Virus record (IMG/VR): IMGVR_UViG_3300037418_002116
Length of the DNA: 64,000 nucleotides
Source of the DNA: a virus
Taxonomy: Duplodnaviria; Caudoviricetes
Direction: 5' to 3' (one strand)
In this document: positions 13,078 through 61,970 of the stretch, piece after piece
Numbering within the stretch: the first letter of the stretch is position 1
How the letters are laid out: every line of letters begins with the position of its first letter
Program-made: the position numbers and the translations under genes
The notes under the pieces: model-generated
Told to the model about the DNA's origin: nothing
The model's database searches: none
Seen by the model: only the letters and a program-made list of their open reading frames with translations

Positions 13078-13566
13078 TTACCCCTTTTGATTCTTGACCA
13101 CAATGGTATCGACCGTCACCTTGAAATCAGGAAGGCTCACTTTGCTAAGCACGGGCTTTCCCTTGTAGCTGTAGCTCACTGAAAGATGCGGTTTCCATTC
13201 CGGCCATGAGTCCTTAAGGCCCGTTGTCTCGTATATCTTCCTTATATTAACAAGTTCGTTGGTTTTGTCAATGAGAATTGTCGGCACATTCTTTTCTTGG
13301 CCCAAAAGTTCGAACCGCTGGAATTTCAGTTCGATAGGGTCAATAGGGAACGTGCCGTTAGCTACGTATTTTTTGTTATCTGAATAGAATACTGTGATGT
13401 GAAAATCGAATTCGTCAGGATCAATTTCTTCCCCTGCAAATGATGTGGTAATATTAAATCCGGAAGCAATACACCATTCTCTCATTTTCTTTTGAGAGTC
13501 TTCCGAAAGTATCAAGGAAACGTATTTTTTATTATAGTTGTCTAGGAAATGTTTAAAAGATAACAA
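13078..13566 (-). CDS. acb1: 2H phosphoesterase, Acb1/gp57B-like anti-CBASS nuclease
   Basis: FHITVFYS and WKPHLSVSY parallel T4 57B HSTICYS and TPHITLSY; YVSLILSEDS near N-terminus; 162 aa. Confidence 0.78.
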   Translation of the reverse strand: MLSFKHFLDNYNKKYVSLILSEDSQKKMREWCIASGFNITTSFAGEEIDPDEFDFHITVFYSDNKKYVANGTFPIDPIELKFQRFELLGQEKNVPTILIDKTNELVNIRKIYETTGLKDSWPEWKPHLSVSYSYKGKPVLSKVSLPDFKVTVDTIVVKNQKG

Positions 13567-13570
13567 AAAA

Positions 13571-13936
13571 TTATGTTGCTTTCTCGGAGTCTACCATCTT
13601 GACGTGAGGGAAACCGCCGTGTTGTTTGCCAAGCTTGATCGCTTCTCCCTTATCGTCATGTGATCCGAGAACCTTACCGGTTCCACAATGCACAATGCGA
13701 TAGCGGTTCAACATAGTTTCGTCACGTTCCATAACAAGTTCCTCTTTGAAGAGTTTACCTAGAGCTTGCTCTTTCTTTCGCTCTTGGTGGGTGTCAAGAT
13801 TGGTTTGAAGGAAATCCATGTGATTTTTCAAACCTTTAATCTGTCGCTTCAATGATTCAATTTTTGGATCATTCGAACCGACTGCCTTGTTTTCTGACAA
13901 GACTTTCTGCACAACTTTCGTGAAATCGAATGCCAT
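13571..13936 (-). CDS. Hypothetical coiled-coil protein
   Basis: Likely start MAFDF at 13936. Confidence 0.55.
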   Translation of the reverse strand: MAFDFTKVVQKVLSENKAVGSNDPKIESLKRQIKGLKNHMDFLQTNLDTHQERKKEQALGKLFKEELVMERDETMLNRYRIVHCGTGKVLGSHDDKGEAIKLGKQHGGFPHVKMVDSEKAT

Positions 13937-13955
13937 TTTAGAGTCCTTTTTGACT

Positions 13956-14495
13956 CTATTTAGCAAATTTCAGATTGTTGAATAGATATTCGTGAGTATC
14001 GTCTGATATCGTAATGGGTAGACCAGCCCTGAACATTTCTTCATTGTCTTCTTTGGCCCATTTTCGCATCATGGTTGAGGACAGAGTTTCAATGAATTCA
14101 CCATCCTGCTTTCGAGCGCCACCGGATATCACGGAAAGTTTGAGCGGCAAGGGTGATTCAGCCGCATAGATCGGGAGCATCCTTTGGAAATCCGCCAATC
14201 GATCTTCACCGATGACCATCACCGCAGACTCATACTCGGAATCGATGATGAAACTGATTACATCACAGAAGCGTCGAAAGATGAATGTCATCTCCCCGAA
14301 TGCCTCTCTAAGCACCTTTAATTTTTCGTCGGTCGGCAGCGGATACCCCTTCGATTCCGAAGAGAACACATATCCGTCACAGTCATTCTCGATAGCCAAC
14401 TGATGAACCAAATCGACAATTTTCTGATGACCCCTGTGTGGAGGTTGAAATTTTCCCCACGTGAAAAAGAGCTTAGACAAAATCGGGAACCTCAA
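13956..14495 (-). CDS. HIGH-family nucleotidyltransferase (cytidylyl/adenylyltransferase-like)
   Basis: WGKFQPPHRGH; VIGEDR; LSSTMMR. Confidence 0.85.
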   Translation of the reverse strand: MRFPILSKLFFTWGKFQPPHRGHQKIVDLVHQLAIENDCDGYVFSSESKGYPLPTDEKLKVLREAFGEMTFIFRRFCDVISFIIDSEYESAVMVIGEDRLADFQRMLPIYAAESPLPLKLSVISGGARKQDGEFIETLSSTMMRKWAKEDNEEMFRAGLPITISDDTHEYLFNNLKFAK

Positions 14496-15252
14496 TCCAA
14501 TATTTGATTTCCATCGGGATATCGAGCTTGGCCGAAGTCAATGTTTCCGTTGTCTCTTTGAGGATTGCCAAATACGTTTTTCGATCATCCTTTTCCCTAT
14601 AGAAGTGACGGAAAATTTCCTCATGAAGCGTCTCGAATGAATCGAGCTTGGCCATTGTCACATTCGGAAGAAACTGTTTGACGATTTCAAGGAAATTAAA
14701 AGACAAGGGAAGACGGTCGATTGTCGTGTACCGTTGTGCGGTCTTGGTCTTTTTTTGGACCAGATACACAAGCCCTTCGAACAAATCCAAATGCTTGCGT
14801 GTCCGGATATATCGGTCATTGCCAAGATTAAATTCCTTGGCCGTCAAAGTTTTGATCATCGACATGATCAAAATATTGCGATGGGCACTCTTATATTTCG
14901 AAGTCTTCGAAGAATGATAAACATCGACTGAATAAGTAATGTCCTTCGATTGCATGAAATCGACTTGGTGCCAATTGTCTGTGTATGGTGAGTATACACA
15001 GACTGAATAGCACTGGCTTGTGATCTTTTTAGTCACAAACATATCTGTCAAAAAGCGAACAAAAGCCGCCCATTGCATATTGTCTGCTTCGAAAACAAAA
15101 TCAAGATCGTTGTATTCTTCTTTTACAAGATTAGAAGAACCGACGACACGCATCTTGATCAAATCTGGAATATGTTTAGAAAGTTCTGTATAAAAATCCT
15201 GAATATGTTCGGATTTCAGAGGAACAGTTTCCTCAAAGACGTTGCCGCCCAT
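14473..15252 (-). CDS. Pol-beta-like nucleotidyltransferase
   Basis: MGGNVF start; VGSS....YNDLDF; QVDFM. Confidence 0.65.
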   Translation of the reverse strand: MGGNVFEETVPLKSEHIQDFYTELSKHIPDLIKMRVVGSSNLVKEEYNDLDFVFEADNMQWAAFVRFLTDMFVTKKITSQCYSVCVYSPYTDNWHQVDFMQSKDITYSVDVYHSSKTSKYKSAHRNILIMSMIKTLTAKEFNLGNDRYIRTRKHLDLFEGLVYLVQKKTKTAQRYTTIDRLPLSFNFLEIVKQFLPNVTMAKLDSFETLHEEIFRHFYREKDDRKTYLAILKETTETLTSAKLDIPMEIKYWIEVPDFV

Positions 15253-16157
15253 TAGCGTTCTCTATTGAAGTTTCTTGCGGAAAATTTAATTCTGTTGACC
15301 AACTTAACCAATCTATCACCCGTGTCAACAACGATTCCTTCATCCGTTTCATTTTTTTCTGGTACAATATCGGAAGAGTAGGTTATAGAATCCAACAAAT
15401 CATCCTTAAAACGAGCTATCTGTTTGTAAAAGCTGATTACTCTTTCCCACTCATTCATATAAGTGGAAATATGGCGCTGAATTTTCTCATTTGGCGCAGC
15501 GTCATAGAAATCTGCCACGTTCAGATTGAAATGACCGGCCCGCACACAGGAATTCGCATATTTCTTGAATGCATCCTTTTGGGCGCTGGTGAGCCCGTCC
15601 GTGTTGTCCACTTCCGGAGGGACGGCAGACCGATAACTGACGTTCGGATTGGTATCGAACATGACCATGTGGAAGGTATTTTCCAACCAACTGTCTCGAT
15701 AATTATGTGGTTTGCCGTCCAGCGTATGCATGGCCACGCCGAGTGTCACATCCTCACGACCACCTTTGTAGGCATAGCGAACCGTATTCGGTTGGAATGT
15801 CATGTTGGTTCGGTCAATATCGGCACAGAACATAAGATCGCCACCAAGAATTTGACCTTTCATGAGTGGTTCGCAATCATGAAATACCAAAAGCAGGAGC
15901 GCCATCTTGGTTGCCAAGGATCGATCCGTGATCTTGTCATAGACTTCCTGTGGCGAGTGGTAAAGCTCTTGATTTTTCTTTAGGAACCCATTTTTGAATG
16001 CAATCCATGACCCTTGGCTATCTCTTCCGAGAACAAAGGATGGGTTTCCATCATATTTCAGAGAAATCGGGTATGTCTTGCGAACGATACCATTTAGAAT
16101 CGCATTCACATTAACGCCATTCTCAAAAATCAAATCTTCAAGGTGACAGATTCTCAT
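15252..16157 (-). CDS. ATP-dependent ligase-like nucleotidyltransferase (DUF6267-like)
   Basis: HLEDL; KYDG (motif I), GDLMF (III), DEGIVV (IV), VKLVNR (V); no obvious OB domain. Confidence 0.6.
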   Translation of the reverse strand: MRICHLEDLIFENGVNVNAILNGIVRKTYPISLKYDGNPSFVLGRDSQGSWIAFKNGFLKKNQELYHSPQEVYDKITDRSLATKMALLLLVFHDCEPLMKGQILGGDLMFCADIDRTNMTFQPNTVRYAYKGGREDVTLGVAMHTLDGKPHNYRDSWLENTFHMVMFDTNPNVSYRSAVPPEVDNTDGLTSAQKDAFKKYANSCVRAGHFNLNVADFYDAAPNEKIQRHISTYMNEWERVISFYKQIARFKDDLLDSITYSSDIVPEKNETDEGIVVDTGDRLVKLVNRIKFSARNFNRER

Positions 16158-16330: not shown

Positions 16331-16952
16331 CTTCACCATCCATATAATGAGAAATTTTGGGCAAATCCGTATTGTATGATGAATCGTTTGCAGATTTCTG
16401 AAAAAATTCATGTAGATAGGGATCGGAAGCCAACACCTTTTCCATTTTGTTCGTGACAATCTCATGGATTGCAGGAAGGCTTAGCGTAGCTTCCGTTTCC
16501 CACGGGAGCATGGCGTACAATTCATACTGCTTGTCTTTGTGCAATCTAACCAATGAAGACAAAGGCATGTAGAAGTGATCTTCCCAATAAACGGCATTCG
16601 CCGCTCTGTCGATTCGGAAACCATCTTCCAAGTATTGCTTGACGTGCACAAGTTCATGGGAAAGGGTAGAAACCATTGTCTTCAAATCGCTGGAATATAT
16701 CACGATATTGAAGCGACCTTTCATATATTGGTCAGTGAACCCATTGGTTTCCTTGTACAAGGCATCCGTTTTGCTTTTCAAAAAGATGTGGACAATTACA
16801 TTTTCGTGTTTGTCCTGCAAAATGGTTTCAAGAAACAATCGAGTGTAACAAATCAATCCGTCTTGCTGTAGTGGAGTACAAGATTCGGGATCACATAAAT
16901 CTGTAACTGTTATCAAGCAGTCAATTCCAGTAGAACGAAAGCTGGTGTCCAT
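16320..16952 (-). CDS. HExxH zinc metallopeptidase
   Basis: LSHELVHVKQY..PWETEA; true start may be near 16916. Confidence 0.7.
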   Translation of the reverse strand: MDTSFRSTGIDCLITVTDLCDPESCTPLQQDGLICYTRLFLETILQDKHENVIVHIFLKSKTDALYKETNGFTDQYMKGRFNIVIYSSDLKTMVSTLSHELVHVKQYLEDGFRIDRAANAVYWEDHFYMPLSSLVRLHKDKQYELYAMLPWETEATLSLPAIHEIVTNKMEKVLASDPYLHEFFQKSANDSSYNTDLPKISHYMDGEDDI

Positions 16953-17089: not shown

Positions 17090-17090
17090 T

Positions 17091-17533: not shown

Positions 17534-17536
17534 ATC

Positions 17537-20862: not shown

Positions 20863-23393
20863 TAAACCCAGAGTCCTTCCAATGTACTAATCTCTTCCTC
20901 TCGCCAGCCAATGACCTTGTTCATTGTTTGCACCGGACCCAAGAAAGTCTTTTCAAATTGTACGTCATAATCTATATATTCGTCCAAACCCAATTCCGGA
21001 GGAAGAGAGCGTGGCGCACAGATGACGTTTTCACCAATTGGGTTCGGTAGTTTCAAATAGCACTGCTTGATCTTTTCGCCTTCGAAGATAGGTTCGACTT
21101 CCAAAAGACCGTGCTTGGCCACGTAATGATTGTACAGAAGCGCACCACGCACGTGCATGGGCACCGCAACACCCTTTGTTCGGTTGTAAATGAAGGTTCT
21201 ATCACCATACTTATCCAAGCCCTTACAACCCTTGGGAGCCGCAACCTCTTCAAAAGGCAGAGTGTAGAATTCTTCCCTAACTTTTTTGACGAAATCACGC
21301 ATGGTGGCTTCGTCTTTTTTCAGAACAATCTCATAGTATGCTTTGAGCTTGTTTCTACAAAATTCCGGAGTGGTTGTCTTGACGCCTTCCAATCCGGTGA
21401 TTTCAATAGAAGGCTTGTCGTATTTGATCTTTTCGTTAGCCAGAACGTGATAAAGATATCTCTTCTTCGCCTGAATAACCATCGTATCGCAGATTTTCTC
21501 TTGCTTCATGAAGAGCTTATCTTGATACGAATTCATCATTTTGCCGACTTCCTTGAAGGCGACATCCAACGCAATCTTTTGGATTTTTTCTTCTGCAAAT
21601 TTGATAAGGAAATCTACAATTTTATCCTTATCGGTTAAGCCAAGCTTTTGGATGAACGGATCAAAATTCACAATGCAAGAGTCGGTATCGGAAGCGATAA
21701 CCCAATCCAGATCGAAACCCGTGATTTTGTTCATGTAACCATTAATCGCTCTTTCAGCGGCCTTAATGATCATTTGACCAAATTTGGTGATCGACTCCGC
21801 AATGCGAAGGTCATAGAAGCGGAACCCCTTGTTTCCGGACGCTCCATACAAAGCATTGATCGAAATTTTCTTGTTCTGTTGAAACACGTCGTATTTCAGA
21901 ACTTCACTTTCAAGCTTGGCAATCAGCGCCTTGTCTTTTACAGCCTTGGCGTGTTGTAGATCGTCCTTTGCCTTGTTCATGAGCTTCTTATATTTTTGAC
22001 GATCATCAAAGAAGCTTTGGACGATTTCAACCATGAAGGACGTGAAATTTCTGGTGAATGTCACACCAGATGCCGACATGGAGAGATTGTTCTGTTTTAA
22101 ATACTCTTCGTAGCCATGCGATTGTCCTAGAAGCAGAGCGTCGAGCGACACGTCCAGTGTGTCACGGATGGTATCCGGGCCGATGTTCGCTTGTAGGTAG
22201 ATCGATGGATACAGGGACGTGATATCGAAGCCCATGACCCATTTGTGGCGCTTGGGTTCGGGTTCCTTGACCAGAGCGCCCATGAACTGGCCTTCGTCGC
22301 CAGTCTCTTCAATTTTGGTAATCGGAACGATAATGTCACGATCTTTGAGATATCCATAGATGATGGAATCCCAAAGCTTCGTCGGCATGAAACATTCAGA
22401 CATATTGATCTTGGCAGAATATGCCATATTGTAGATCAATCGCAAAATGTTCAACTTACTTTCCATTCGTTGAACAAGATTGGCGTCTTTGATGTTGTAC
22501 TCATAGAAAAGTTGTGGATTCTGTTCATACAGTCCGGCGAGCGAACCATATGCCTTGTAATCCACCTTCTTTTCACCAAGAACGACATGCGCAACGGTAT
22601 CGAGCTTGTTATCGTCTGGATTTAGGTGTGGAGGACGGAACTTTTTGAAGGAAAGCAGATAATCAAGATCGATGATACCATAGATATCAAAAATTTCGAT
22701 TTCCTTGCCACGATAGGATTTGATGTTTCGTGGTTTGATGATTCCCCATGGCGACAAACGCTTCGCCCAACTCCAACCAAGCACCGCTGTTATGCGTCGA
22801 ATCATGTAGGGCAAGTCGAAGGCGGTCGTATTCCAGCCGGACACGGCGTCCAAGGCGAGCTTTTCCCACACCTTGACGAAGTGCCGAAGCATCTCGTATT
22901 CATTCTCAAACCAGAAAAACGTCGTGCCATCCGGAGCCTTGAAATCCTTCATGCCCCAGAGATACGTTTTGTCGCCAACCACCAGACCGATTGCGGTCAC
23001 TTCCTTGGTCGCTTGGCCTTCTTCCGAGTGCCCGCCTCTCGAATCGGTTTCGATATCGATAAAGCCGGTCTTAATCAGACTGTCGTCATAATCGATTTCA
23101 TCGGGAAACTCTTCATGGATGAAGGCATTAACCCAATTCTGTTGTCCATAAACTTGGAAATTTGCAGCGGCTTCGAAATTTTTCAGGAAATCTCGGGCCT
23201 TGCCAATCGATGCAAATTTGATTGGAGCAAGGGATACACCATGGTATGATTTCCGAATGGCGTTTTCTGCTTTGGAAGGCGTATAGAGAGTTGGCTGATA
23301 TTTCAGGCGCTTCTTAAATGGTTTGCCGTCTCTATAGCCACGAACAAGAATGTCATCGAACTGCTGTTCGACTTTCGTATAGAACGTTGAAAT
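20862..23393 (-). CDS. 43: Family B DNA polymerase (gp43), proposed ATT start
   Basis: DITSLYPS, YGASGN, SDTDS, KKRY; frame open 131 codons upstream of the track start and includes exonuclease DIETD; GGAG-N7-ATT at 23393. Confidence 0.93.
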   Translation of the reverse strand: MSTFYTKVEQQFDDILVRGYRDGKPFKKRLKYQPTLYTPSKAENAIRKSYHGVSLAPIKFASIGKARDFLKNFEAAANFQVYGQQNWVNAFIHEEFPDEIDYDDSLIKTGFIDIETDSRGGHSEEGQATKEVTAIGLVVGDKTYLWGMKDFKAPDGTTFFWFENEYEMLRHFVKVWEKLALDAVSGWNTTAFDLPYMIRRITAVLGWSWAKRLSPWGIIKPRNIKSYRGKEIEIFDIYGIIDLDYLLSFKKFRPPHLNPDDNKLDTVAHVVLGEKKVDYKAYGSLAGLYEQNPQLFYEYNIKDANLVQRMESKLNILRLIYNMAYSAKINMSECFMPTKLWDSIIYGYLKDRDIIVPITKIEETGDEGQFMGALVKEPEPKRHKWVMGFDITSLYPSIYLQANIGPDTIRDTLDVSLDALLLGQSHGYEEYLKQNNLSMSASGVTFTRNFTSFMVEIVQSFFDDRQKYKKLMNKAKDDLQHAKAVKDKALIAKLESEVLKYDVFQQNKKISINALYGASGNKGFRFYDLRIAESITKFGQMIIKAAERAINGYMNKITGFDLDWVIASDTDSCIVNFDPFIQKLGLTDKDKIVDFLIKFAEEKIQKIALDVAFKEVGKMMNSYQDKLFMKQEKICDTMVIQAKKRYLYHVLANEKIKYDKPSIEITGLEGVKTTTPEFCRNKLKAYYEIVLKKDEATMRDFVKKVREEFYTLPFEEVAAPKGCKGLDKYGDRTFIYNRTKGVAVPMHVRGALLYNHYVAKHGLLEVEPIFEGEKIKQCYLKLPNPIGENVICAPRSLPPELGLDEYIDYDVQFEKTFLGPVQTMNKVIGWREEEISTLEGLWV

Positions 23394-27432: not shown

Positions 27433-27936
27433 TTACTTCTTTTCCAATGAAAAATGATATAGAATGACCAGATAATGGATGGCCTTTAAAATGTCTTTTG
27501 GATTATGACCTTCCTTTTTACCATATCTTGCGGTATATTTCAAGACATTTCCTTTGAGGAAATCATATGAATCCGAATTTGCCATGATGAAATCGAGCGC
27601 CTGAATGCCGTCTTTCTCGGAATAGTGTCCAGCATACGTCGAATCGATATATGCTTTTGCCTTTTCAAGGATTGCAGATTCATTGAACTTGTAACGAACC
27701 GCTGGAATACTCATTTGGGTAATGGAAATTGTTCCATCCATCGGAATGCCACCGAAAGTCGCATTAGGAGCGCCAGAGGTCGTTGGTGCATATGGATAAC
27801 TTGCGGTAGGTGGCAAATTCGGATAGATACCAGTTCCCAACGGAGCGCCAGCGGTTGTAGCATGGGTAGAGAACGACGACAGGGTGTTTGAATTGCCCGG
27901 AACAGTTTCTAGTTCGGTTATTTTACTTTCTGCCAT
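27433..27936 (-). CDS. DUF3310/SaV-like protein
   Basis: YIDSTYAGHY..GNVLKYTARYGKKEG..DILKAIHY. Confidence 0.7.
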   Translation of the reverse strand: MAESKITELETVPGNSNTLSSFSTHATTAGAPLGTGIYPNLPPTASYPYAPTTSGAPNATFGGIPMDGTISITQMSIPAVRYKFNESAILEKAKAYIDSTYAGHYSEKDGIQALDFIMANSDSYDFLKGNVLKYTARYGKKEGHNPKDILKAIHYLVILYHFSLEKK

Positions 27937-28781
27937 TACTTCAACCCCTTCACTTCGTTCTTGTCGGCGGTTGGGCTCATGCCCGTGGCCGCAACGGCAG
28001 GAAGGTTACCAACGAATTTGGTTGTTCCGATGTGATGAACTTGCATCCATGGGCAAAGCGTGACGTTGATACCCATGGCACGGGATTCCTGACAGAAGAA
28101 ATAATCTTCCGAAAGATGCCGTTCATTGATGATAGGGTCTTGGAAATAAGCCATGATCCTACGGTCACCGTCAAAGTTCTTCGAACGGACATGATCCGGC
28201 TTGTAGAGATATTGCGGACGCTGGTCATTCCACACTTCAAAGATGGAGCGATTAATCAGCATGAAGCCAGTTCCGATTTCCAACACGTCAATCGGTTCAT
28301 CGATCTTGTATTCGCCATCCTTGGCAGGATTGAACACAAAGTCGCCAGCATAGTTTTCTAGGACAAATGGGTTCTTTTCGGCATAGCCGAGTTCAACAGC
28401 CCGCTTGACCTTTTCCCAAGCAATAGATTTCTTTGGATAAGCAGCGCCTATGATACCCTTCGAAGGGTCGTTCTGGGTGATTTGGAGCATCCCAAAAACG
28501 TCCATAGGGCTGAATTCAATGTCCGAATCGATGAACAGCAAATCCGTAAAGCCAGATCGCATGAATTCATCAGCGCTATAATTTCTCGCTCTTGTAATGA
28601 GCGATTCATTGAATAGTGCGAAAAAGGTATTCTTGATACCATATTGGGTAAGCATACCCGTCAAATCGAGGACGGATTTCATATAGAAACCCGAATTGTT
28701 TCCGCCATACATTGGCGTGGCGATAAAGACGGAACGTTCTTTTGATAGTGTTTCTACATCTATATTAATTTTAGTATTCAT
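27936..28781 (-). CDS. GT-A fold glycosyltransferase-like protein
   Basis: FIATPMYGG; ESLITRARN; LFIDSDI (DxD); GTGFMLI; SEDYFFC. Confidence 0.75.
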   Translation of the reverse strand: MNTKINIDVETLSKERSVFIATPMYGGNNSGFYMKSVLDLTGMLTQYGIKNTFFALFNESLITRARNYSADEFMRSGFTDLLFIDSDIEFSPMDVFGMLQITQNDPSKGIIGAAYPKKSIAWEKVKRAVELGYAEKNPFVLENYAGDFVFNPAKDGEYKIDEPIDVLEIGTGFMLINRSIFEVWNDQRPQYLYKPDHVRSKNFDGDRRIMAYFQDPIINERHLSEDYFFCQESRAMGINVTLCPWMQVHHIGTTKFVGNLPAVAATGMSPTADKNEVKGLK

Positions 28782-28793
28782 TAATTCCCTTGG

Positions 28794-31360: not shown

Positions 31361-31737
31361 ATGGCGTTTTTAAAGTCTTCCAAAAATGATTTCAATTTAA
31401 CAATGCGGGCGACACGTTCTTTGCGAGCAAGAAGCTCATTCTCTACTTTTAAAAGGGCTTCTTGACGTTCCATATCAAGTATGGCTGTCTGCATTACGAA
31501 ATCATGGAAATCTTGATCAAGTTTAATTCTATTTGAGTGGAAAGTCTTACCACCTGTCCCCAATCCGAGTTTGAAACAATGACTTCCTTCGGATACGGTA
31601 ACACTAATATCTTTTCCATAGTGTACCGTAGCATATCCACTATAGTAGTCAGTACTAGTCACATGATGACGAATACAAGTATTAACTAGCTCTTCATAGA
31701 TTTTCTGATGTTCAATATCAGCTTCTTCTCTGGTCAT
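31357..31737 (-). CDS. Hypothetical protein
   Basis: 126 aa; coupled overlaps. Confidence 0.55.
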   Translation of the reverse strand: MTREEADIEHQKIYEELVNTCIRHHVTSTDYYSGYATVHYGKDISVTVSEGSHCFKLGLGTGGKTFHSNRIKLDQDFHDFVMQTAILDMERQEALLKVENELLARKERVARIVKLKSFLEDFKNAI

Positions 31738-32273
31738 TTACGGAGTCCCATTAGTTTGTTTGTGGAATAGGTGATGCCAGTACGCTTAGCGCACTTCTTC
31801 ACCATCATGTCGATTTTCAGTTTGGAAAAACCAGCAAAGAATGGCTTGCCATCGATATGGCACATTTCGTGCTGGATAATGCGAGCGGTCAAACCGGAAA
31901 GTGTGGACTCTTTCTCGTCACCGTCAATGTTCTGATATTGTACCGTGATTGTCTTGTGTCGCTCCACCTTGGCGATAAGGCCGGGAAAGCTCAAACATCC
32001 TTCATCCATTCCTTCCTTTTCGGAAGAAACTGAAACGATCTTTGGATTGAACATCGGCATTATCGATCCGGAATCACGACCGTTGCCGAACACAAACACG
32101 GCCCACGGGAGCCCGACTTGATTGGCCGATAGACCATAGCCCTTCATTTCCGAAAGAAGCTGTTTCAGCGTTTCGAATGTCTCTTGGGCATTTTGTGTTT
32201 CGAAGTCAAAAGGGATGGTCGGGGTGTACAGGATAGGGTTGTCGGAAGCGACAAGTTCAAGCTTTTCAGTCAC
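31734..32273 (-). CDS. def: Peptide deformylase
   Basis: GYGLSANQVG; EGCLSFP; QHEMCH. Confidence 0.93.
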   Translation of the reverse strand: MTEKLELVASDNPILYTPTIPFDFETQNAQETFETLKQLLSEMKGYGLSANQVGLPWAVFVFGNGRDSGSIMPMFNPKIVSVSSEKEGMDEGCLSFPGLIAKVERHKTITVQYQNIDGDEKESTLSGLTARIIQHEMCHIDGKPFFAGFSKLKIDMMVKKCAKRTGITYSTNKLMGLRK

Positions 32274-32443
32274 TCTTTGTATCTTTCAATGGCCCGGATA
32301 GCAGCACGGGCTTCGTCTTTGAATTCTTTCCAAAGTTCACATTTTGTAGAATCTTCGGAATCGCAAATCAGGCACAATCGCTTGTTGATAGTTTTGCCAG
32401 CCGCAAGGCATATCTCACGGCTGACTGATTCCACTTTCGACAT
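32270..32443 (-). CDS. Hypothetical Cys-containing protein (57 aa)
   Basis: Manual ORF MSKVESVSREICLAAG... Confidence 0.5.
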   Translation of the reverse strand: MSKVESVSREICLAAGKTINKRLCLICDSEDSTKCELWKEFKDEARAAIRAIERYKE

Positions 32444-33206
32444 GACGATATTTTTCCTCGATCCGGAGCGGATTGCTGCGAACCATGCGTGTCCGGATGA
32501 CCGGTTTCGTAGGATGATGTTCGAAAGGAATAGTCGCCAATTCGTTAATTGTCAACATCCTTTCTTCCGTAATCCGTGAAATTTCGGTGCCAACTCGGAA
32601 ACAGGCAGCATGTTCTTCAAAGAAATCTATGCCAAATGCCTTTATCATCTCCAATTTCTCTCTTGTGTTCTTACCCATGAGTTTGGAGTGGCCAAAGAGG
32701 TAATGCGCCGCCGATTGTACAGAATTTTTGAAGGCGTCTTGTTGACGCCAAAGGATCATATTGTTAGCTTCATCCATCGTCGGAACGTTGATGATTCTAC
32801 AATCGAACGACGGTATCGTTTTGGGTTCCTCTCCAAAATAAGCACAATATGAAAGGGTAAATTTGGCAGCGCACATAGCGGCCAACACAGAAGCGAGTTT
32901 CTGAATTTTACCATCGAACATGAATTGGCTTGGGCCTTCACACGGTTCCCAAATCAATGAAATTTCGTCCGATTGCGTGTACCCGAGTAGAGCCTTGGTT
33001 TCGTAGGCCAGATATTCGGTCGTGTCCTGCATACAAGCAGACATGTCACGGTCGAACGGACGCTTCATTCGTCTGGTAAAGCTGGAAAACGAGCGGCCAT
33101 CCAAACGGGCATAGATCGGGAGAGAGGTATCCAGTTTCTGTTCAGTGAAGACCTTTTCGTAGGTCTTCATGCGGTCACCGAAGTTGTCGTGGTGTTTTGT
33201 ACTCAT
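32415..33206 (-). CDS. Thg1-like 3'-5' nucleotidyltransferase
   Basis: ARLDGRSFSSFT..PFD; YTQSDEISL; FDCR; WRQQDAFKNS. Confidence 0.92.
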   Translation of the reverse strand: MSTKHHDNFGDRMKTYEKVFTEQKLDTSLPIYARLDGRSFSSFTRRMKRPFDRDMSACMQDTTEYLAYETKALLGYTQSDEISLIWEPCEGPSQFMFDGKIQKLASVLAAMCAAKFTLSYCAYFGEEPKTIPSFDCRIINVPTMDEANNMILWRQQDAFKNSVQSAAHYLFGHSKLMGKNTREKLEMIKAFGIDFFEEHAACFRVGTEISRITEERMLTINELATIPFEHHPTKPVIRTRMVRSNPLRIEEKYRHVESGISQP

Positions 33207-33405
33207 TACTTACATATTTGTAGAAATTATCGATTTCAGTATTGGAATCGCTTGCTGTTAGAATTAGTTGAGAAACCATGCGGCCTTTGAAATATACATC
33301 TTTAGAAAGGTACACATGAATGAATTCAACGCCGTCGAAGTCAGTACCGATGGTTGTATTCGGAAATGAAGCGGCTTTGACTTTACATTCAACGAATGTC
33401 GGCAT
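33175..33405 (-). CDS. Hypothetical protein
   Basis: TGATG-coupled start MPTFVECK at 33405. Confidence 0.55.
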   Translation of the reverse strand: MPTFVECKVKAASFPNTTIGTDFDGVEFIHVYLSKDVYFKGRMVSQLILTASDSNTEIDNFYKYVSNEYKTPRQLR

Positions 33406-34405: not shown

Positions 34406-34430
34406 AAAAAGCAGCCCATGGAAGGGCTGC
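34406..34430 (-). terminator. Intrinsic terminator after the permuted tRNA-like RNA
   Basis: GCAGCCC-TTCCAT-GGGCTGC-TTTTT. Confidence 0.8.
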
Positions 34431-34457
34431 ATAAAAAATAAAATAGAAGGAGGATTT

Positions 34458-34544
34458 AAGTGGGGCGTCCTTACCAGACTAGACGACACCGTTCATAGCG
34501 TTGTGAACAGCGGCAGGATTCGAACCATACGTTTCCCCAGACTT
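34458..34544 (-). ncRNA. Circularly permuted tRNA-like RNA (YrlA/Y RNA-like)
   Basis: Order: TGGGG, T arm (GG-TTCGAAT-CC), acceptor-like stem closed by a loop, D arm (GTCTAGTCTGGTAAGGAC), CCCCA; own promoter and terminator. Confidence 0.72.
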
Positions 34545-34546
34545 TA

Positions 34547-34575
34547 TATATACGACATTTTCAAAGAAATGTCAA
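34547..34575 (-). promoter_or_regulatory. Sigma70-type promoter for the tRNA-like RNA
   Basis: TTGACA-N17-TATATA. Confidence 0.72.
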
Positions 34576-41670: not shown

Positions 41671-41748
41671 GCCCATGTAGGCCAATCGGTTAGAGTCGGC
41701 GGACTTAAAATCCGTACAGTGTGGGTTCGAATCCCACCATGGGCACCA
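41671..41748 (+). tRNA. tRNA-Leu(UAA) with short variable region
   Basis: GCCCATG/CATGGGC; GCGGA-CTTAAAA-TCCGT; 5-nt variable region; CCA; TAAATA at 41661. Confidence 0.88.
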
Positions 41749-47106: not shown

Positions 47107-47310
47107 ATGAAATTTTCCATGCGCCATAAAATATTTGAGAATACGATTCGAGAATTTGACGAAAATACCGCACCAGATTGGTTGACGAGCAAGAATACGG
47201 TCAAAGGCTCGACTATGGATGATCGTTGGTTCTGGAATGAGCATGTTTTGACTTTGGAAATTGGTGAGACAGTTCACACCGACTTTCAGGAAATCACAAG
47301 AATCGAATGA
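47107..47310 (+). CDS. Hypothetical protein
   Basis: 67 aa. Confidence 0.55.
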   Translation: MKFSMRHKIFENTIREFDENTAPDWLTSKNTVKGSTMDDRWFWNEHVLTLEIGETVHTDFQEITRIE

Positions 47311-47624
47311 CCTACAAGCTGTTTTTGGATGATGAACGAAATCCTGTCACACCTATTGATTGGAAAATTGCCCGGTCCTTCGAAGAAGCTTGTCGGCTTT
47401 TTGAAGAGTTCGGAGCGCCATCATTCATCAGCTTTGACCATGATCTTGGACAATCGCTTAGCGGTTTCGACTTCGCCAAATGGATTGTGGATAAGGATCA
47501 AGATCAAAACTTCCTGACAGAGGATTTCGATTATTACGTTCATTCCCAAAACCCTATTGGGAAACAGAACATCGAAGGACTCTTGAATTCTTATTTGAGG
47601 CAGAAGTTCGATGATAAATTTTGA
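47307..47624 (+). CDS. Cyclic-phosphate-processing receiver domain protein
   Basis: LFLDDER; ISFDHDLG; HSQNPIG. Confidence 0.8.
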   Translation: MTYKLFLDDERNPVTPIDWKIARSFEEACRLFEEFGAPSFISFDHDLGQSLSGFDFAKWIVDKDQDQNFLTEDFDYYVHSQNPIGKQNIEGLLNSYLRQKFDDKF

Positions 47625-47983: not shown

Positions 47984-48223
47984 ATGACTTTGTATAGTGT
48001 TCTCATTCGTGCAACGAATGATCCCGATAAAGTAAAGCTTTTTGTCTTTGATTTTGAACCTTCAAAAGAAACTATAGAAAAAGCATTGGATGAATGCGAA
48101 CTGGTGTTTGGCAAAAATCTAACTGGCTATAGTTTTAGCGGTACACTAATTAAGCGTAGTGACACAGACGAACCGCCAGAGATTAAGTTCTTTGATGGTT
48201 TCAACAAGTTTAATCGATCTTGA
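47984..48223 (+). CDS. Hypothetical protein
   Basis: Start MTLYSVLIR. Confidence 0.5.
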   Translation: MTLYSVLIRATNDPDKVKLFVFDFEPSKETIEKALDECELVFGKNLTGYSFSGTLIKRSDTDEPPEIKFFDGFNKFNRS

Positions 48224-48929
48224 CGGCTTTGTAGCCTTTGGAATGGCCATAGGTAATTAGATTGCCGTGTCTTACGCCATTGGCTTTGCTCCATGCTGTA
48301 AGATTGGTTATTTCCTCTTGGCGTCCATCTGGATATGTGACAAGCCATTTTGAAGCCATAGATTTGGAAATTTTATTTTTCCATTCTTCCGAGTGCTTTT
48401 TGCCTCGATTGGCTTCATGCATCTTGGCGGCATTTTCTCGATTAGTATCAATGCGAGTGGCAGCGGATTCACGCAACTTTTCTTTGGTTTCATTCGACAT
48501 TGCCTTACCCTTATTCCAAGGGACGTAATCTTTCTTCGCTTCACGCATTTTCTGCTTGGCTTCCTCTGTGTGTTTCTTACCATAGAATGGATTATCTGGA
48601 CCGGAGAATGAAGGCGGGCGACAATCGATAAGATGGTTCAAAAGGATACCGTGATAATCATAATTCAGACGCCCATATGTTTGAATTAATTCAGCTTCTA
48701 TATCATATGCGGTGCTTTCTTCAAGATTATCATGAAGAATTTTTATTTCTGGGTCTTTGCCGTATAGCTTTCGAATCTTGGCTATTCTGCCGTTCAGTCG
48801 TTTGTTATGGCAATACTCTGGTTTGTCAGTCAGATGTTGTTTGTATCGGTTTCCGGTCCCTTTGCCGATGTATAATGGTCTATCGGAGTTCGGATCGATT
48901 ATAGCGTATACGTAATATTTGTTTGTCAT
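48210..48929 (-). mobile_element. Free-standing GIY-YIG homing endonuclease with NUMOD3 repeats
   Basis: YYVYAIID..LYIGKGTGNR; NPFYGKKHTEEAKQKM; TAAATA at 48960-48955. Confidence 0.85.
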
Positions 48930-58720: not shown

Positions 58721-59032
58721 ATGACCATTGGGGACATTATGGTAGATACTTCAAATCCGTTTTTTGGAAAAAAACATACCGCCGCTTCCCGCAAAAAAAT
58801 TAAAGAAAATCATGTCGGCATGACCGGCAAAAAACATTCCCCAGAAACGAAAGAAAAAATGTCAACGGCACACACGGGCCGGAATTGGGTTTACAAAGGA
58901 ATGGTCACCAAATCTATTCCGAGTGAAGAACTGGATTCCTATCTCGAAAGCGGTTGGTTGAGAGGCAGAGCTATCGATAAAAGAGGATCGAAGAGCTACA
59001 TGCTGAAATTTTTGTTCGAAAATTCCCCTTGA
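58721..59032 (+). pseudogene. NUMOD3-only homing endonuclease remnant
   Basis: NPFFGKKHT..; GMTGKKHSPETKEKMS; no GIY-YIG or HNH catalytic domain. Confidence 0.6.
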
Positions 59033-59057: not shown

Positions 59058-59092
59058 AACGTCATAGTCATTGGATTATGAAAGGATTGTGA

Positions 59093-59302: not shown

Positions 59303-59341
59303 AACCCAAACGGGCCTGTAGGTCCATCAAAGGAGTCGAAC

Positions 59342-60235: not shown

Positions 60236-60264
60236 TTGACAAAAAGATTCCAATGTGGTACATA
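60236..60264 (+). promoter_or_regulatory. Sigma70-type promoter
   Basis: TTGACA-N17-TACATA. Confidence 0.6.
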
Positions 60265-60296
60265 TTGGATATCTGCAATCTTAATTAAGGAAATTT

Positions 60297-60824: not shown

Positions 60825-60833
60825 TTTTTCTGC

Positions 60834-60862
60834 TTGACTCTTAAAAGCGAATAGATTATACA
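60834..60862 (+). promoter_or_regulatory. Promoter for tmRNA
   Basis: CTTGACT-N17-TATACA. Confidence 0.7.
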
Positions 60863-60867
60863 TATAC

Positions 60868-61195
60868 TCGTTGTGATGAAGACGACTGAAAGGTATTCAG
60901 GACTCGGGGGCGGAACCCGACTAGTCCACCACAACCAGATAGAGGGACGAAAGCCCGGCCAATAACACGGCGTCGTATGATGGCTGGCGTTCTATCTGGT
61001 TATGATGGGCTAGAAACAGGATCGACTGGTACGTAATAGGAAGTTGGAGCAACCGGCATTGTACCGCCGTTATCGGGCTAAACACAATAAGAGACAACGA
61101 TAACTTCGTTCCTCTGGCAATCGCTGCCTAATCAGCAGTAGCCAATGAGTTTTGGCGGTTGAACTTGGAAACAGAATCAACCGCCGCTTCTATTT
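60868..61195 (+). ncRNA. ssrA: Circularly permuted two-piece tmRNA
   Basis: Acceptor piece ends TCGGG-GGCGGAA-CCCGA-CTAGTCC-ACCA (60931); coding piece starts GGGCTAG (61007) with G3:U70; tag DNDNFVPLAIAA-stop at 61093-61131. Confidence 0.93.
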
Positions 61196-61207
61196 TCAGG
61201 AAAAAAT

Positions 61208-61522
61208 TTGAGTAGAATATTAACCAACGGCGCACTTGTGCCGGAAGACAATTCCCATACAGAAATCAATCCGGTCACAGGTCAACAAAAGGCTTATGTG
61301 ATTCTCTCGGAAGACGAACGGGCCAAGGGCTTCGTTCGCCCGCTTCGCAGAAGCTACAAACACACAGTGTGTGGAACCGAAACCACGATGGGTCAAGCCA
61401 TCGCTGAAACCTACGCTCGTAATCCGAAATTTTATTCTGCCACCTTCTGTTGTCAGTGCAAAACACATAAGCCTCTAAACGAATTTCATTGGTCCGGTAC
61501 AACGGAAATTGTTGGATCATGA
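61208..61522 (+). CDS. Hypothetical Zn-binding protein
   Basis: HTVCG..FCCQC; TTG start. Confidence 0.65.
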   Translation: MSRILTNGALVPEDNSHTEINPVTGQQKAYVILSEDERAKGFVRPLRRSYKHTVCGTETTMGQAIAETYARNPKFYSATFCCQCKTHKPLNEFHWSGTTEIVGS

Positions 61523-61743
61523 AAAAAGATTTAGACCCAGATTTTTGGGATGACTTCGTTTTCTTGGCCCAATCCTTTGCTTCGATCATGCAAGGCGATG
61601 TTTATGACCATCGCATAAATGGCGCATATGCCATCATGAAAAAATATGGATTGGACGAATACGGATGTCCACCGGAAGACGAAGAAGACGACACGCCAGT
61701 TCCTATGATTCCGGCTAAGAAGCCGAAACAGGCGTTGGATTGA
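61519..61743 (+). CDS. Hypothetical acidic protein
   Basis: ATGA-coupled start MKKDLDP. Confidence 0.55.
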   Translation: MKKDLDPDFWDDFVFLAQSFASIMQGDVYDHRINGAYAIMKKYGLDEYGCPPEDEEDDTPVPMIPAKKPKQALD

Positions 61744-61970
61744 GCGACTTCCTAAATGACTTCGAATCGTTATTCGGAGTCCCTGATAAGCCGAAGCGAG
61801 ACTTCACCAAAGAAGTCCAGACAACCCAAGCAAATCCAGATGCCAAAAAGCTGATAACCATTCGGCTTGATCGGGATATTATAGCTTATTTTCAACAGCA
61901 AGGCGAAGGGTATCAAACCCGTATCAATAATGCCTTGCGGGAATTTATGAATCAACGATTAAAGAAATAA
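61740..61970 (+). CDS. brnA: BrnA-family antitoxin (ribbon-helix-helix), orphan
   Basis: KLITIRLDRDIIAYFQQQGEGYQTRINNALREF. Confidence 0.85.
   Translation: MSDFLNDFESLFGVPDKPKRDFTKEVQTTQANPDAKKLITIRLDRDIIAYFQQQGEGYQTRINNALREFMNQRLKK

What the first reader, a model, noticed from the sequence alone, without database searches (positions are those of the whole stretch)
13078..61970. Candidate system: dispersed RNA-repair and translation-rescue toolkit
One window holds a two-piece tmRNA, a Y-like permuted tRNA mimic, Thg1, a cyclic-phosphate receiver, a 2H phosphoesterase, a ligase-like and a Pol-beta NTase, peptide deformylase, atypical tRNAs, an orphan RNase antitoxin and non-AUG starts. Each part is read from the sequence; their cooperation is inference. 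The model is to heal and ligate or refill cleaved tRNAs, decoy tRNA-directed nucleases, and rescue stalled ribosomes against RNase-based abortive infection in rhizobia.
Basis: inference. Interest (0 to 1): 0.72.

Follow-up and report, generated by a model that had tools for sequence, protein, structure and literature searches.

The report
Scattered RNA-repair genes, not one system
An uncultured soil T4-like phage really carries a tmRNA, a tRNA-end repair enzyme, a ligase-like enzyme set, a tRNA-shaped RNA and other RNA and translation helpers, but related phages inherit them separately, so they look like independent accessories of a kind already described for large phages, not one new system.

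Summary
Every listed part is in the sequence: a two-piece tmRNA, a bacterial-type Thg1-like protein, peptide deformylase, a cREC receiver, an Acb1-like 2H phosphoesterase, a DUF6267 / Pol-beta NTase / HIGH-NTase trio, a permuted tRNA-shaped RNA, odd tRNAs, an orphan BrnA and an AUU start on the polymerase.

New here: a confident model puts DUF6267 in the ligase fold, nearest to nick-sealing RNA ligases. The permuted RNA is backed by covariation, and similar RNAs sit beside Ro/Rsr genes in two other phage contigs.

All parts travel together only in two close relatives. Three more distant T4-like relatives keep only deformylase, tmRNA and/or DUF6267. Six cultured phages carry other subsets. In 50,697 phage records the five proteins searched occur mostly in phages of different host genera. 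No link between modules is conserved outside the close relatives.

The toolkit concept for large phages is already published (PMC7824862), as are two-piece tmRNAs in T4-like phages (PMC9004378). This scan had already found the DUF6267 trio and phage Thg1 in other genomes.

Verdict: observation confirmed, theme plausible, single system not supported, moderate-to-low interest.

The parts
13078..13566 (-). 2H phosphoesterase, Acb1-like, with a T4 capsid-targeting-like N-terminus (LSFKHFLD)
   Evidence: Pfam Acb1 26.9 bits and 2_5_RNA_ligase2 26.6 bits, cut-off 27. phrog_755 matches at 9e-14. The only PDB relative is T4 Acb1 (7t26), at E 0.17, aligned over both HxT/S motifs. The motifs FHITVFYS and KPHLSVSYS are read. 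Nearest phage homologues are in Rhizobium, Sinorhizobium and Ochrobactrum phages.
13956..14495 (-). HIGH-motif (cytidylyltransferase/NMNAT-like) nucleotidyltransferase
   Evidence: Pfam CTP_transf_like 27.7 bits, above its cut-off. phrog_3041 matches at 2.6e-28, and the protein also fits positions 423-598 of the 764-position phrog_455 profile, which also covers DUF6267. Motif GKFQPPHRGH. It lies next to DUF6267 in G002 and G004 as well.
14473..15252 (-). Pol-beta superfamily (mini Pol X-like) nucleotidyltransferase
   Evidence: No Pfam, PHROG or PDB sequence hit. The Atlas holds a model (pTM 0.81) whose structural neighbours include NTP_transf_2 proteins, Pol X palm/thumb proteins, and fusions with DUF6267 (990 aa) and CTP_transf_like (500-531 aa). 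Motif GSS...DLDF.
15252..16157 (-). DUF6267 protein: covalent nucleotidyltransferase (ligase) fold, closest to nick-sealing RNA ligases
   Evidence: Pfam DUF6267 96 bits. The AlphaFold model built on 119 sequences has pLDDT 87.6. VIA-align gives NgrRnl (5cot) Z 8.4, Trl1 6.5, T4 Rnl2 6.5/6.3, T4 Rnl1 6.1, DNA ligases 5.0-5.7 and capping enzymes about 4. The Foldseek matches are weak (best E 0.025); 49 of the 50 listed are ligases. K34-x-D36-G37, E273-G274 and K285 are near-invariant in the family.
31734..32273 (-). Peptide deformylase
   Evidence: Pfam 130 bits. TIGR00079 equivalog 107.5 bits against a cut-off of 103.95. Motifs GLSANQVG, EGCLSFPG and QHEMCH are intact. It is present in 7 of 11 comparison genomes.
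32415..33206 (-). Thg1-like protein (bacterial TLP type 3'-5' polymerase)
   Evidence: Pfam Thg1 97 bits and phrog_4717 at 5.6e-72. The best PDB match is the Bacillus thuringiensis TLP 4kgk at E 2.3e-30; the other Thg1/TLP entries, eukaryal ones included, score 4e-10 to 2e-8. The catalytic motifs RLDGRSF and SDEISL are present.
34406..34575 (-). Circularly permuted tRNA-shaped RNA (YrlA-like topology). The core is 34453-34541, with a promoter-like TTGACA-17-TATATA upstream and a terminator hairpin at 34411-34430
   Evidence: Sequence and terminator. Four copies in three phages show compensatory changes. In a nine-sequence alignment 89% of cells are paired, 12 pairs change on both sides, and the covariation score is 0.528 against at most 0.112 for slid controls. 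There is no Rfam match, even in a 271-nt search. RNAs matching the same motif lie next to TROVE/Rsr genes in two other phage contigs.
41671..43003 (+). Three phage tRNAs: UAA (78 nt, no long variable arm), CAU (C1xA72, initiator-like end) and Ile-GAU
   Evidence: ARAGORN and Rfam at 60.6, 42 and 68.4 bits. The same trio is in G001 and G011.
47307..47624 (+). Stand-alone cREC (cyclic-phosphate processing receiver) domain protein
   Evidence: Pfam cREC_REC 87 bits and phrog_1479 at 1.9e-27. The acidic residues FLDDER and FDHD are present. No ligase or NAD gene is adjacent. The gene sits elsewhere in G001.
60830..61185 (+). Two-piece (permuted) alphaproteobacterial-type tmRNA. The acceptor piece ends in CCA at about 60931, the coding piece starts at 61007, and the tag frame is 61093-61131
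   Evidence: Rfam RF01849 126 bits and RF04321 109 bits, with alignment. Tag DNDNFVPLAIAA*. The acceptor stem with G3:U70 is kept by compensatory changes in G001 and G011. ARAGORN calls the homologues in G001 and G011.
61740..61970 (+). Orphan BrnA-type antitoxin
   Evidence: Pfam BrnA_antitoxin 62.5 bits and phrog_4692. The upstream and downstream ORFs have no Pfam or PADLOC hit. No BrnT family match in G001, G011, vB_OspM_OC or phiM12.
23001..23393 (-). N-terminal 131 codons of the family-B DNA polymerase, lying above its first ATG/GTG/TTG. Initiation at ATT 23393-23391 is inferred
   Evidence: The longest canonical ORF starts at 23000. That ORF matches only positions 133-242 of the 242-position exonuclease-domain profile, so the first part of the domain is missing from it. 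The upstream frame is open and reads as a polymerase N-terminus containing FIDIETD.

Best explanation
The window comes from an uncultured T4-like phage of soil and rhizosphere, probably with an alphaproteobacterial host. It carries several separately inherited accessory modules that touch RNA ends or translation. They are not one system. My working reading of each module:

1. The two-piece tmRNA is charged by host AlaRS and, with host SmpB, adds ribosome-rescue capacity.
2. Peptide deformylase adds capacity for maturing new proteins.
3. The TLP-type Thg1 rebuilds or extends tRNA 5' ends by templated 3'-5' addition. This may include adding G-1 to the phage's own tRNA-His.
4. The DUF6267 ligase, mini Pol X-like NTase and HIGH NTase form one conserved, sometimes fused, fill-and-seal unit. 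It acts on nicked nucleic acid, and whether the substrate is RNA or DNA is open.
5. The neighbouring 2H enzyme is an Acb1-like phosphodiesterase. It is aimed either at cyclic-oligonucleotide immune signals or at 2',3'-cyclic phosphate ends.
6. cREC is a predicted cyclic-phosphate hydrolase.
7. The orphan BrnA neutralises a host BrnT-type RNase toxin.
8. The permuted tRNA-shaped RNA is a Y-RNA-like tRNA mimic whose partner is unknown.

What is shown: the presence and intactness of each part, the fold of DUF6267, the structure of the RNA, and the patchy distribution of the parts. What is inferred: every activity and every target.
For: Parts and motifs.

Patchy distribution. G011 and G001 have all parts. 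G002 and G004, both at least 90% complete, have deformylase and DUF6267; G004 also has a full tmRNA and G002 only a sub-threshold match (36 bits). Both lack Thg1, cREC, this 2H, BrnA and the RNA. G003 has only tmRNA and deformylase. vB_OspM_OC has cREC, 2H and deformylase. phiM12 has only Thg1. CcrColossus has Thg1, tmRNA and deformylase. Atu_ph07 and Serratia BF have Thg1 and cREC. MD18 has Thg1 and tmRNA.

Across 50,697 phage records the hits and host profiles differ:
- Thg1: 164 records, mostly Bacillus, Prevotella, Caulobacter and Mycobacterium phages.
- cREC: 187 records, mostly Streptomyces, Escherichia and Aeromonas phages.
- DUF6267: 69 records, 62 of them cyanophages.
- This 2H: 10 records.
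- BrnA: 11 records, all temperate Burkholderia phages.

Tight linkage exists only inside the trio. Fused forms are seen in phrog_455 and in Atlas clusters, and DUF6267 lies next to the HIGH NTase in G002 and G004. cREC changes position between close relatives.

The toolkit idea for large phages is published (PMC7824862). Two-piece tmRNA in T4-like phages is published and called 'common but not defining' (PMC9004378).
Against: All parts do co-occur, in the same order, in the three members of this phage group. Selection on the set within this lineage therefore cannot be excluded.

The comparison set is small: 11 genomes, four of them chosen because they carry Thg1, and the metagenomic contigs may be incomplete.

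Several parts share a plausible common enemy, namely host RNases that leave cyclic-phosphate ends. Relative G001 also carries two canonical RNA ligases and a CCA-adding enzyme, so this lineage clearly invests in tRNA upkeep.

No activity was tested.
Confidence: 0.6

Rival explanations
1. One reading: the parts form one cooperating anti-RNase toolkit. cREC and 2H open cyclic phosphates, the NTase and Thg1 refill lost nucleotides, DUF6267 seals the break, the tRNA mimic decoys tRNA nucleases, BrnA blocks an RNase toxin, and tmRNA plus deformylase keep ribosomes working.
For: All parts are intact and conserved in order in three related phages. The Thg1 is of the TLP type. The DUF6267 fold is closest to RNA ligases. 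The 2H gene lies two genes from the trio in all three phages. cREC and 2H are predicted to resolve cyclic phosphates in phage RNA repair. G001 adds canonical RNA ligases and a CCA-adding enzyme.
Against: There is no co-occurrence beyond the close relatives, and host profiles in the phage collection are largely disjoint. cREC is not next to a ligase or NAD gene here, and it moves in G001. DUF6267 phages G002 and G004 lack the 2H, cREC and Thg1. No polynucleotide 5' kinase or RtcB was found in G001 or G011. The contigs with similar tRNA mimics have no Thg1.
Confidence: 0.15
2. Most of the supposed repair parts do other jobs. The 2H enzyme is a packaged Acb1 that destroys CBASS signals. cREC processes ADP-ribose-derived cyclic phosphates in NAD conflicts. 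The Pol X-like / ligase / HIGH-NTase trio repairs DNA nicks and gaps. Thg1 only adds G-1 to the phage's own tRNA-His for its private mini-HisRS.
For: The only solved relative of the 2H enzyme is T4 Acb1, Pfam Acb1 is its top hit, and it has a capsid-targeting-like leader. The cREC literature ties the domain equally to NAD/ADPr systems. The NTase resembles Pol X palm/thumb proteins, and DNA ligases also match DUF6267 at Z 5.0-5.7. Earlier notes of this scan report a mini-HisRS with a G-1:C73 tRNA-His in this genome; I did not check this.
Against: RNA ligases rank above DNA ligases for DUF6267. TLPs repair many tRNAs in vitro (PMC3061083). Thg1-bearing relatives G001 and G011 gave no HisRS family match, and ARAGORN called no tRNA-His in G001. 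The Acb1 score is just below the family cut-off.
Confidence: 0.2

Closest known systems
RNA-repair and RNA-conflict gene sets of jumbo phages (Iyer, Anantharaman, Krishnan, Burroughs, Aravind 2021, PMC7824862; 2022, PMC9503650)
   Same: The same cast appears: 2H and cREC as predicted cyclic-phosphate resolvers, RNA ligases with accessory Pol-beta NTases, Thg1 for 5' nucleotide restoration, and rescue of jammed ribosomes. All are read as counter-measures to host RNases. These genes are likewise scattered and sporadic across phages.
   Different: Here the ligase-like enzyme is DUF6267, not a named RNA ligase family. The NTase is not RlaP. Rescue is by tmRNA and not by Pth2. An orphan BrnA and a Y-like RNA are added. 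The host phage is T4-like and from soil.
T4 Pnkp + Rnl1 repair of PrrC-cleaved tRNA-Lys (established knowledge)
   Same: The idea is the same: a phage heals and seals tRNA cut by an abortive-infection RNase.
   Different: No 5' kinase/3' phosphatase and no Rnl1 family member were found. The Rnl1 search rang in no control genome, so it is uninformative. There is no evidence of a matching host nuclease.
Two-piece tmRNA of Melnitz and pelagimyophages (Buchholz et al. 2022, PMC9004378) and of Caulobacter/roseophage genomes
   Same: A permuted alpha-type ssrA in T4-like phages, present in many but not all relatives. I also found it in CcrColossus and MD18.
   Different: The habitat is soil/rhizosphere. 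No glutamine riboswitch hit was returned. The tag starts with Asp (DNDNF...IAA).
Bacillus thuringiensis Thg1-like protein (PDB 4kgk; PMC3701042, PMC3061083)
   Same: It is the best solved relative (E 2.3e-30) and the catalytic motifs are conserved. The family does templated 3'-5' repair of tRNA 5' ends.
   Different: This one is phage-encoded. Its substrate in vivo is unknown. 164 phage records already carry such genes.
YrlA Y RNA with Rsr/Ro60 (Rfam RF02553)
   Same: The permuted topology is the same: ends in the anticodon-stem position, acceptor stem closed by a loop, and intact T and D arms. RNAs matching the same T-arm/D-arm motif sit next to TROVE genes in two phage contigs, and one such RNA gets a weak YrlA score.
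   Different: The window RNA has no Rfam YrlA match and no long Ro-binding stem. No TROVE gene is present in G001 or G011.
T4 Acb1 (gp57B; PDB 7t26)
   Same: The only solved relative. Both HxT/S motifs align. Similar size.
   Different: Similarity is weak (E 0.17; Pfam 0.1 bit under the cut-off). The substrate is untested.
RlaP-RNA ligase pairs (bioRxiv 10.64898/2025.12.29.696909) and ASFV Pol X + ligase
   Same: A small Pol-beta NTase coupled to a ligase, read as adding nucleotides and then sealing.
   Different: The NTase does not match PF10127. There is a third, HIGH-motif enzyme. No paper in the searched library mentions DUF6267.

Membership tests
One co-inherited functional system (the finding's claim) | Parts co-occur beyond close relatives | tested here: not met
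   The full set is found only in G001 and G011. Nine other genomes carry differing subsets. Host profiles differ in 50,697 phage records.
One co-inherited functional system (the finding's claim) | Conserved adjacency or fusion between modules | tested here: not met
   Only the DUF6267 / NTase / HIGH-NTase trio is linked or fused. cREC moves in G001. Thg1 and deformylase are 150 kb apart in CcrColossus.
Heal-and-seal RNA repair pathway (T4 Pnkp/Rnl1 type) | Polynucleotide 5' kinase / 3' phosphatase present | tested here: inconclusive
   The AAA_33 search of G001 and G011 gave one sub-threshold match each (19 bits), at the place that aligns with this window's clamp-loader gene. The window's own whole genome is not held.
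Alphaproteobacterial two-piece tmRNA (RF01849) | Score above the gathering cut-off, with the permuted order | tested here: met
   126.3 bits against 50; RF04321 109 bits against 47.
Alphaproteobacterial two-piece tmRNA (RF01849) | Alanine identity (G3:U70), CCA end, tag frame with stop | tested here: met
   GGGCUAG pairs with CUAGUCC-ACCA. Compensatory changes in G001 and G011 keep G3:U70. The tag is DNDNFVPLAIAA*.
Alphaproteobacterial two-piece tmRNA (RF01849) | SmpB partner | not tested
   None of the window ORFs scanned against Pfam matched an SmpB family. Use of host SmpB is assumed.
Thg1 / Thg1-like proteins (PF04446) | Family score and catalytic carboxylate motifs | tested here: met
   97.3 bits against 29.2. 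RLDGRSF and SDEISL are present.
Thg1 / Thg1-like proteins (PF04446) | Belongs to the bacterial TLP branch, not eukaryal Thg1 | tested here: met
   4kgk at E 2.3e-30; the other Thg1/TLP entries, eukaryal ones included, at 4e-10 to 2e-8.
cREC (PF20274) | Family score and conserved acidic pocket | tested here: met
   87.1 bits against 27. DD and DxD are present.
cREC (PF20274) | Context with RNA ligase, Nudix, sirtuin or other NAD/RNA-repair genes | tested here: not met
   The neighbours are a 67-aa ORF and other ORFs with no family hit. The G001 copy sits among ORFs with no family hit, about 3 kb from a baseplate gene.
2H phosphoesterase / Acb1 (PF23474, PF13563) | Two HxT/S motifs | tested here: met
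   FHITV and PHLSV, aligned to T4 Acb1.
2H phosphoesterase / Acb1 (PF23474, PF13563) | Score above the family cut-off | tested here: inconclusive
   26.9 and 26.6 bits against 27.
ATP-dependent RNA/DNA ligase superfamily (for DUF6267) | Adenylyltransferase fold with KxDG lysine and motifs IV and V | tested here: met
   Model pLDDT 87.6. The top 24 VIA rows are all ligases, the best Z 8.4 with rmsd 3.8 over 176 residues. K34, D36, G37, E273, G274 and K285 are conserved.
ATP-dependent RNA/DNA ligase superfamily (for DUF6267) | Sequence membership of a named ligase family | tested here: not met
   The only Pfam match is DUF6267. No PDB sequence match, even with profiles.
RlaP (PF10127) | Family match | tested here: not met
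   No Pfam family at E up to 0.01 for the 259-aa NTase.
BrnTA toxin-antitoxin | BrnA domain | tested here: met
   62.5 bits against 26.1.
BrnTA toxin-antitoxin | Adjacent BrnT toxin | tested here: not met
   The flanking ORFs have no hit. PF04365 is absent from G001, G011, vB_OspM_OC and phiM12.
YrlA Y RNA (RF02553) | Covariance-model match | tested here: not met
   No match at E up to 10 in a 271-nt search.
YrlA Y RNA (RF02553) | Rsr/TROVE gene in the genome | tested here: not met
   No TROVE match in G001 (100% complete) or G011. The window's own genome could not be searched.
YrlA Y RNA (RF02553) | Permuted tRNA-like module supported by covariation | tested here: met
Peptide deformylase | Equivalog score and the three metal/catalytic motifs | tested here: met

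The most novel reading that the evidence does not exclude
Within this soil phage lineage the parts are a co-selected 'translation insurance' set. The Rsr-less Y-like tRNA mimic, which lies 1.3 kb from the TLP in all three genomes, would serve as decoy or scaffold for tRNA-directed nucleases or repair enzymes. The DUF6267 trio would be a new RNA fill-and-seal machine, with cREC and 2H as its end-healing enzymes in place of a kinase-phosphatase.
Probability: 0.1. Interest if true: 0.7.

Novelty: new member of a known kind. Interest (0 to 1): 0.35.

Why it matters
If the set really worked as one pathway, it would show a kinase-free route by which phages mend RNase damage, and it would give functions to three uncharacterised families: cREC, DUF6267 and the HIGH-NTase. 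As it stands, the value is more modest. This is a well-documented example of how densely a soil T4-like phage is equipped for RNA and translation upkeep. It also yields two concrete leads that can be tested on their own. One is DUF6267 as a ligase-fold enzyme nearest to RNA nick-sealing ligases. The other is a covariation-supported tRNA mimic of Y-RNA topology in phages that lack Ro.

Tried and rejected
- The window's whole genome is not held. Relatives G001 and G011 were fetched whole and used instead.
- The first AlphaFold run on DUF6267, with 11 sequences, gave pLDDT 40 and was discarded.
- PDB sequence and profile searches for DUF6267 and the NTase found nothing meaningful.
- Foldseek against PDB gave only weak rows, best E 0.025.
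- PADLOC and NCBIfam added nothing for the unknown proteins.
- Rfam found no family for the permuted RNA, either in the whole window or in a 271-nt search.
- A HisRS family search (PF13393) found nothing in 11 genomes. The Thg1-to-HisRS link therefore could not be tested in the relatives.
- RtcB was not found in G001 or G011. T4 Rnl1 was not found either, but that search rang in no control genome and is uninformative.
- The contigs with similar tRNA mimics share no protein with this window apart from one UvsX-like hit, and they have no Thg1.
- RNA evidence: two rhizosphere metatranscriptome runs hold only four exact 151-nt records, over 33194-34300. None covers the small RNA, the tRNAs match only over about 30 nt, and DNA carry-over cannot be excluded. 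This shows nothing about expression.
- I considered complex prediction and did not use it, because I do not claim that any two proteins bind.
- I considered the permuted RNA as a permuted pre-tRNA needing ligation. CCA follows the discriminator in G001 and G011a, but the window and G011b read CAA, so I did not adopt this reading.

Full report
**What the window is.** This is a T4-like phage. Replication genes (DnaB-like helicase, UvsX, family-B polymerase, clamp and clamp loader, gp46/47, UvsW, UvsY, RegA) and head/tail genes (major capsid protein, scaffold, prohead protease, portal, tube, sheath) fill most of 13-60 kb. DNA-level matches are short and go to Ochrobactrum phage vB_OspM_OC, cyanophage S-PM2 and the Sinorhizobium phiM12 group. 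The exact DNA is in several soil and rhizosphere metagenomes. The whole genome is not held. One gene of the window lies on a 261-kb contig.

**Are the parts there?** Yes, all of them.
- The tmRNA is a clear alpha-type permuted gene: 126 bits, an acceptor stem with G3:U70, a CCA end, and the tag DNDNFVPLAIAA. G001 and G011 keep the G3:U70 stem through compensatory changes, which argues that the RNA is charged.
- The Thg1 scores well above the family cut-off. Its best solved relative by twenty orders of magnitude is the Bacillus thuringiensis Thg1-like protein, so it belongs to the bacterial TLP branch.
- Peptide deformylase is intact and passes the equivalog cut-off.
- cREC is a clean stand-alone domain with its acidic residues.
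- The 2H enzyme has both HxT/S motifs. It sits 0.1 bit under the Acb1 cut-off, and T4 Acb1 is its only solved relative.
- BrnA is clear and has no BrnT beside it or anywhere in four related genomes.
- The polymerase frame continues for 131 sensible codons above its first canonical start, and the UvsW frame does likewise.
- The tRNA with anticodon UAA lacks the long arm of leucine tRNAs. The CAU tRNA has the C1xA72 end of an initiator.

**The ligase-like trio.** I used first-reader notes to locate it.
- DUF6267 gave no sequence match to any solved protein.
- A library-wide profile search found 3,197 representatives, typically about 410 residues long, and many longer proteins that may be fusions.
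- With 119 of these sequences the model reached pLDDT 87.6.
- An exhaustive structural comparison put only ligases in the top 24 rows. The Naegleria nick-sealing RNA ligase was first (Z 8.4), followed by fungal tRNA ligase, T4 Rnl2 and T4 Rnl1 (Z 6.1-6.5), then DNA ligases (5.0-5.7) and capping enzymes (about 4).
- The KxDG lysine and motifs IV and V are nearly invariant. So 'ligase-like' is right, with a lean toward RNA ligases that is suggestive and not decisive.
- The 259-aa neighbour is a Pol-beta-fold NTase resembling mini Pol X. Other phages have clusters that fuse it to DUF6267 or to the HIGH NTase. One PHROG profile spans DUF6267 and the HIGH NTase. The two genes are also adjacent in the distant relatives G002 and G004.
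- This trio is therefore one real unit. No searched paper names DUF6267. Earlier reports of this scan described the same trio in other phages as a Pol X-ligase-NTase repair module.

**The permuted tRNA-shaped RNA.**
- On the minus strand a promoter-like TTGACA-17-TATATA is followed by a 5-bp stem strand, a variable loop, a T arm, a 9-bp hairpin in the acceptor position, a D arm, the returning stem strand, a U-rich tail and a terminator.
- G001 has one copy and G011 two tandem copies. Each copy's stems co-vary with themselves.
- A motif scan of IMG/VR returned 21 loci. About eight further loci have the permuted arrangement and are not tandem tRNAs.
- On nine sequences 89% of cells pair, 12 of 23 pairs change on both sides, and the covariation score is 0.528 against at most 0.112 when partners are slid.
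- In two of those contigs the RNA lies directly upstream of, or about 1.1 kb from, a TROVE (Ro/Rsr) gene. One such RNA gets a weak YrlA score.
- The window RNA gets no YrlA score, and G001 and G011 have no TROVE gene.
- 'Y-like permuted tRNA mimic' is a fair description of the shape. Membership of YrlA is not shown, and the partner is unknown.

**Do the parts belong together?** This is the core of the finding, and the answer is no on present evidence.
- G011 (core proteins 90-97% identical) and G001 (65-96% identical) have every part in the same order, except that cREC sits about 55 kb away in G001. Such close relatives share the parts by descent, which says little.
- G002 and G004 are at least 90% complete T4-like relatives with 66-68% capsid identity. 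They keep deformylase and DUF6267. G004 also has a tmRNA, and G002 only a sub-threshold match. Both lack Thg1, cREC, this 2H, BrnA and the RNA. G003 keeps only tmRNA and deformylase.
- The cultured phages show other subsets. vB_OspM_OC has cREC, 2H and deformylase. phiM12 has Thg1 only. CcrColossus has Thg1, tmRNA and deformylase, with Thg1 and deformylase 150 kb apart. Atu_ph07 and Serratia BF have Thg1 and cREC. MD18 has Thg1 and tmRNA.
- Across 50,697 phage records the proteins have different ranges. Thg1 is in 164 records (Bacillus, Prevotella, Caulobacter, Mycobacterium phages). cREC is in 187 (Streptomyces, Escherichia, Aeromonas phages). DUF6267 is in 69 (almost all cyanophages). This 2H is in 10 (mostly rhizobial phages). 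BrnA is in 11 (temperate Burkholderia phages).
- A classical heal-and-seal route also needs a 5' kinase. None was seen in G001 or G011, nor RtcB.
- G001 does have two canonical RNA ligases and a CCA-adding enzyme inside its 26-tRNA region. The lineage therefore invests in tRNA upkeep, but through yet other genes.

**Alternative jobs for individual parts.**
- The 2H enzyme may be an Acb1 that destroys CBASS signals. Its leader resembles the T4 capsid-targeting peptide, which suits an injected enzyme.
- cREC is linked in the literature as much to NAD/ADP-ribose conflicts as to RNA ends, and it is untested.
- The trio could mend DNA.
- Thg1 could add G-1 to the phage's own tRNA-His for a mini-HisRS that earlier notes report 90 kb downstream. 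I could not check that: the region is outside my window, and the relatives gave no HisRS match.
- Deformylase is the most widely kept part (7 of 11 genomes), so it behaves as a general accessory gene.

**Compared with what is known.** Iyer and colleagues laid out the general picture for jumbo phages: 2H, cREC, ligases with Pol-beta NTases, Thg1 and ribosome-rescue factors as scattered, sporadic counter-measures to host RNases (PMC7824862). Two-piece tmRNAs in T4-like phages, 'common but not defining', were described for Melnitz and pelagimyophages (PMC9004378). RNA ligase-associated NTases that restore lost nucleotides now have biochemical support. This window is a rich new instance of that known kind. 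Its particular components (DUF6267 in place of a named ligase, an Rsr-less Y-like RNA, an orphan BrnA) are variations.

**Host.** An alphaproteobacterial host fits the tmRNA type. The nearest homologues of the 2H are in Rhizobium, Sinorhizobium and Ochrobactrum phages, and those of cREC are in Ralstonia, Agrobacterium, Rhizobium and Ochrobactrum phages. The samples are from rhizosphere and soil. 'Rhizobia' is plausible but not shown.

**Verdict.** Observation confirmed. The theme is plausible for some parts. The single-system reading is not supported. Confidence that these are independent modules: 0.6.

Noticed in passing
L149:6512-6681 (G011 contig 39349-39552, minus strand): The closest relative carries two tandem copies of the permuted tRNA-shaped RNA with no promoter between them. 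Each copy's stems pair only with itself. The first copy has CCA after the discriminator, and the second has CAA, like the window.
   Followed up: partly
window 60830-61010, compared with L099 (G011): G011 keeps a nearly identical tmRNA coding piece, but its acceptor piece is different (another T arm and acceptor sequence, still with G3:U70). The two halves of the permuted gene seem to be exchanged independently.
   Followed up: partly
window 61970-62359 (+): A 129-aa ORF just after BrnA carries a phosphoribosyltransferase-like PRPP motif (LLIIDTAEQTGKT). It has no Pfam, NCBIfam or PADLOC hit, and it is 80-87% conserved in G001 and G011.
   Followed up: partly
G001 contig 16333-16788, 20705-21301 and 31512-31880: Relative G001 has two canonical PF09414 RNA ligases and a CCA-adding enzyme inside a region with 23 of its 26 tRNA genes. 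The matching part of this window's genome lies outside the window and could not be read.
   Followed up: partly
window 41671-41748 (+): A tRNA with anticodon UAA is only 78 nt long and has no long variable arm, so it lacks the usual shape of a bacterial leucine tRNA. It is conserved in G001 and G011.
   Followed up: no
window 48210-48929 (-) and 58721-59032 (+): A GIY-YIG/NUMOD3 homing-endonuclease gene lies beside the major capsid gene; it is present in G011 and absent in G001. A stand-alone NUMOD3 ORF lies after the tail sheath gene.
   Followed up: no
window 27936-31360 (-): A conserved block of a phrog_1574 protein, a MoxR-like AAA_5 ATPase and a 559-aa protein with a faint IrrE/M78 peptidase motif sits between the clamp gene and deformylase. 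Its function is unknown.
   Followed up: no
window 33405-34388 (-): A 327-aa protein of unknown function (phrog_6266 and others) lies between Thg1 and the permuted RNA in all three phages. It is much less conserved than its neighbours: 33% identity in G001 against 73% for Thg1.
   Followed up: partly
L137, L138, L140, L145 (IMG/VR contigs): The phage contigs with similar permuted tRNA mimics are packed with tRNA genes, ten or more per 8-14 kb locus. Several carry sub-threshold YrlA matches and a tmRNA.
   Followed up: no
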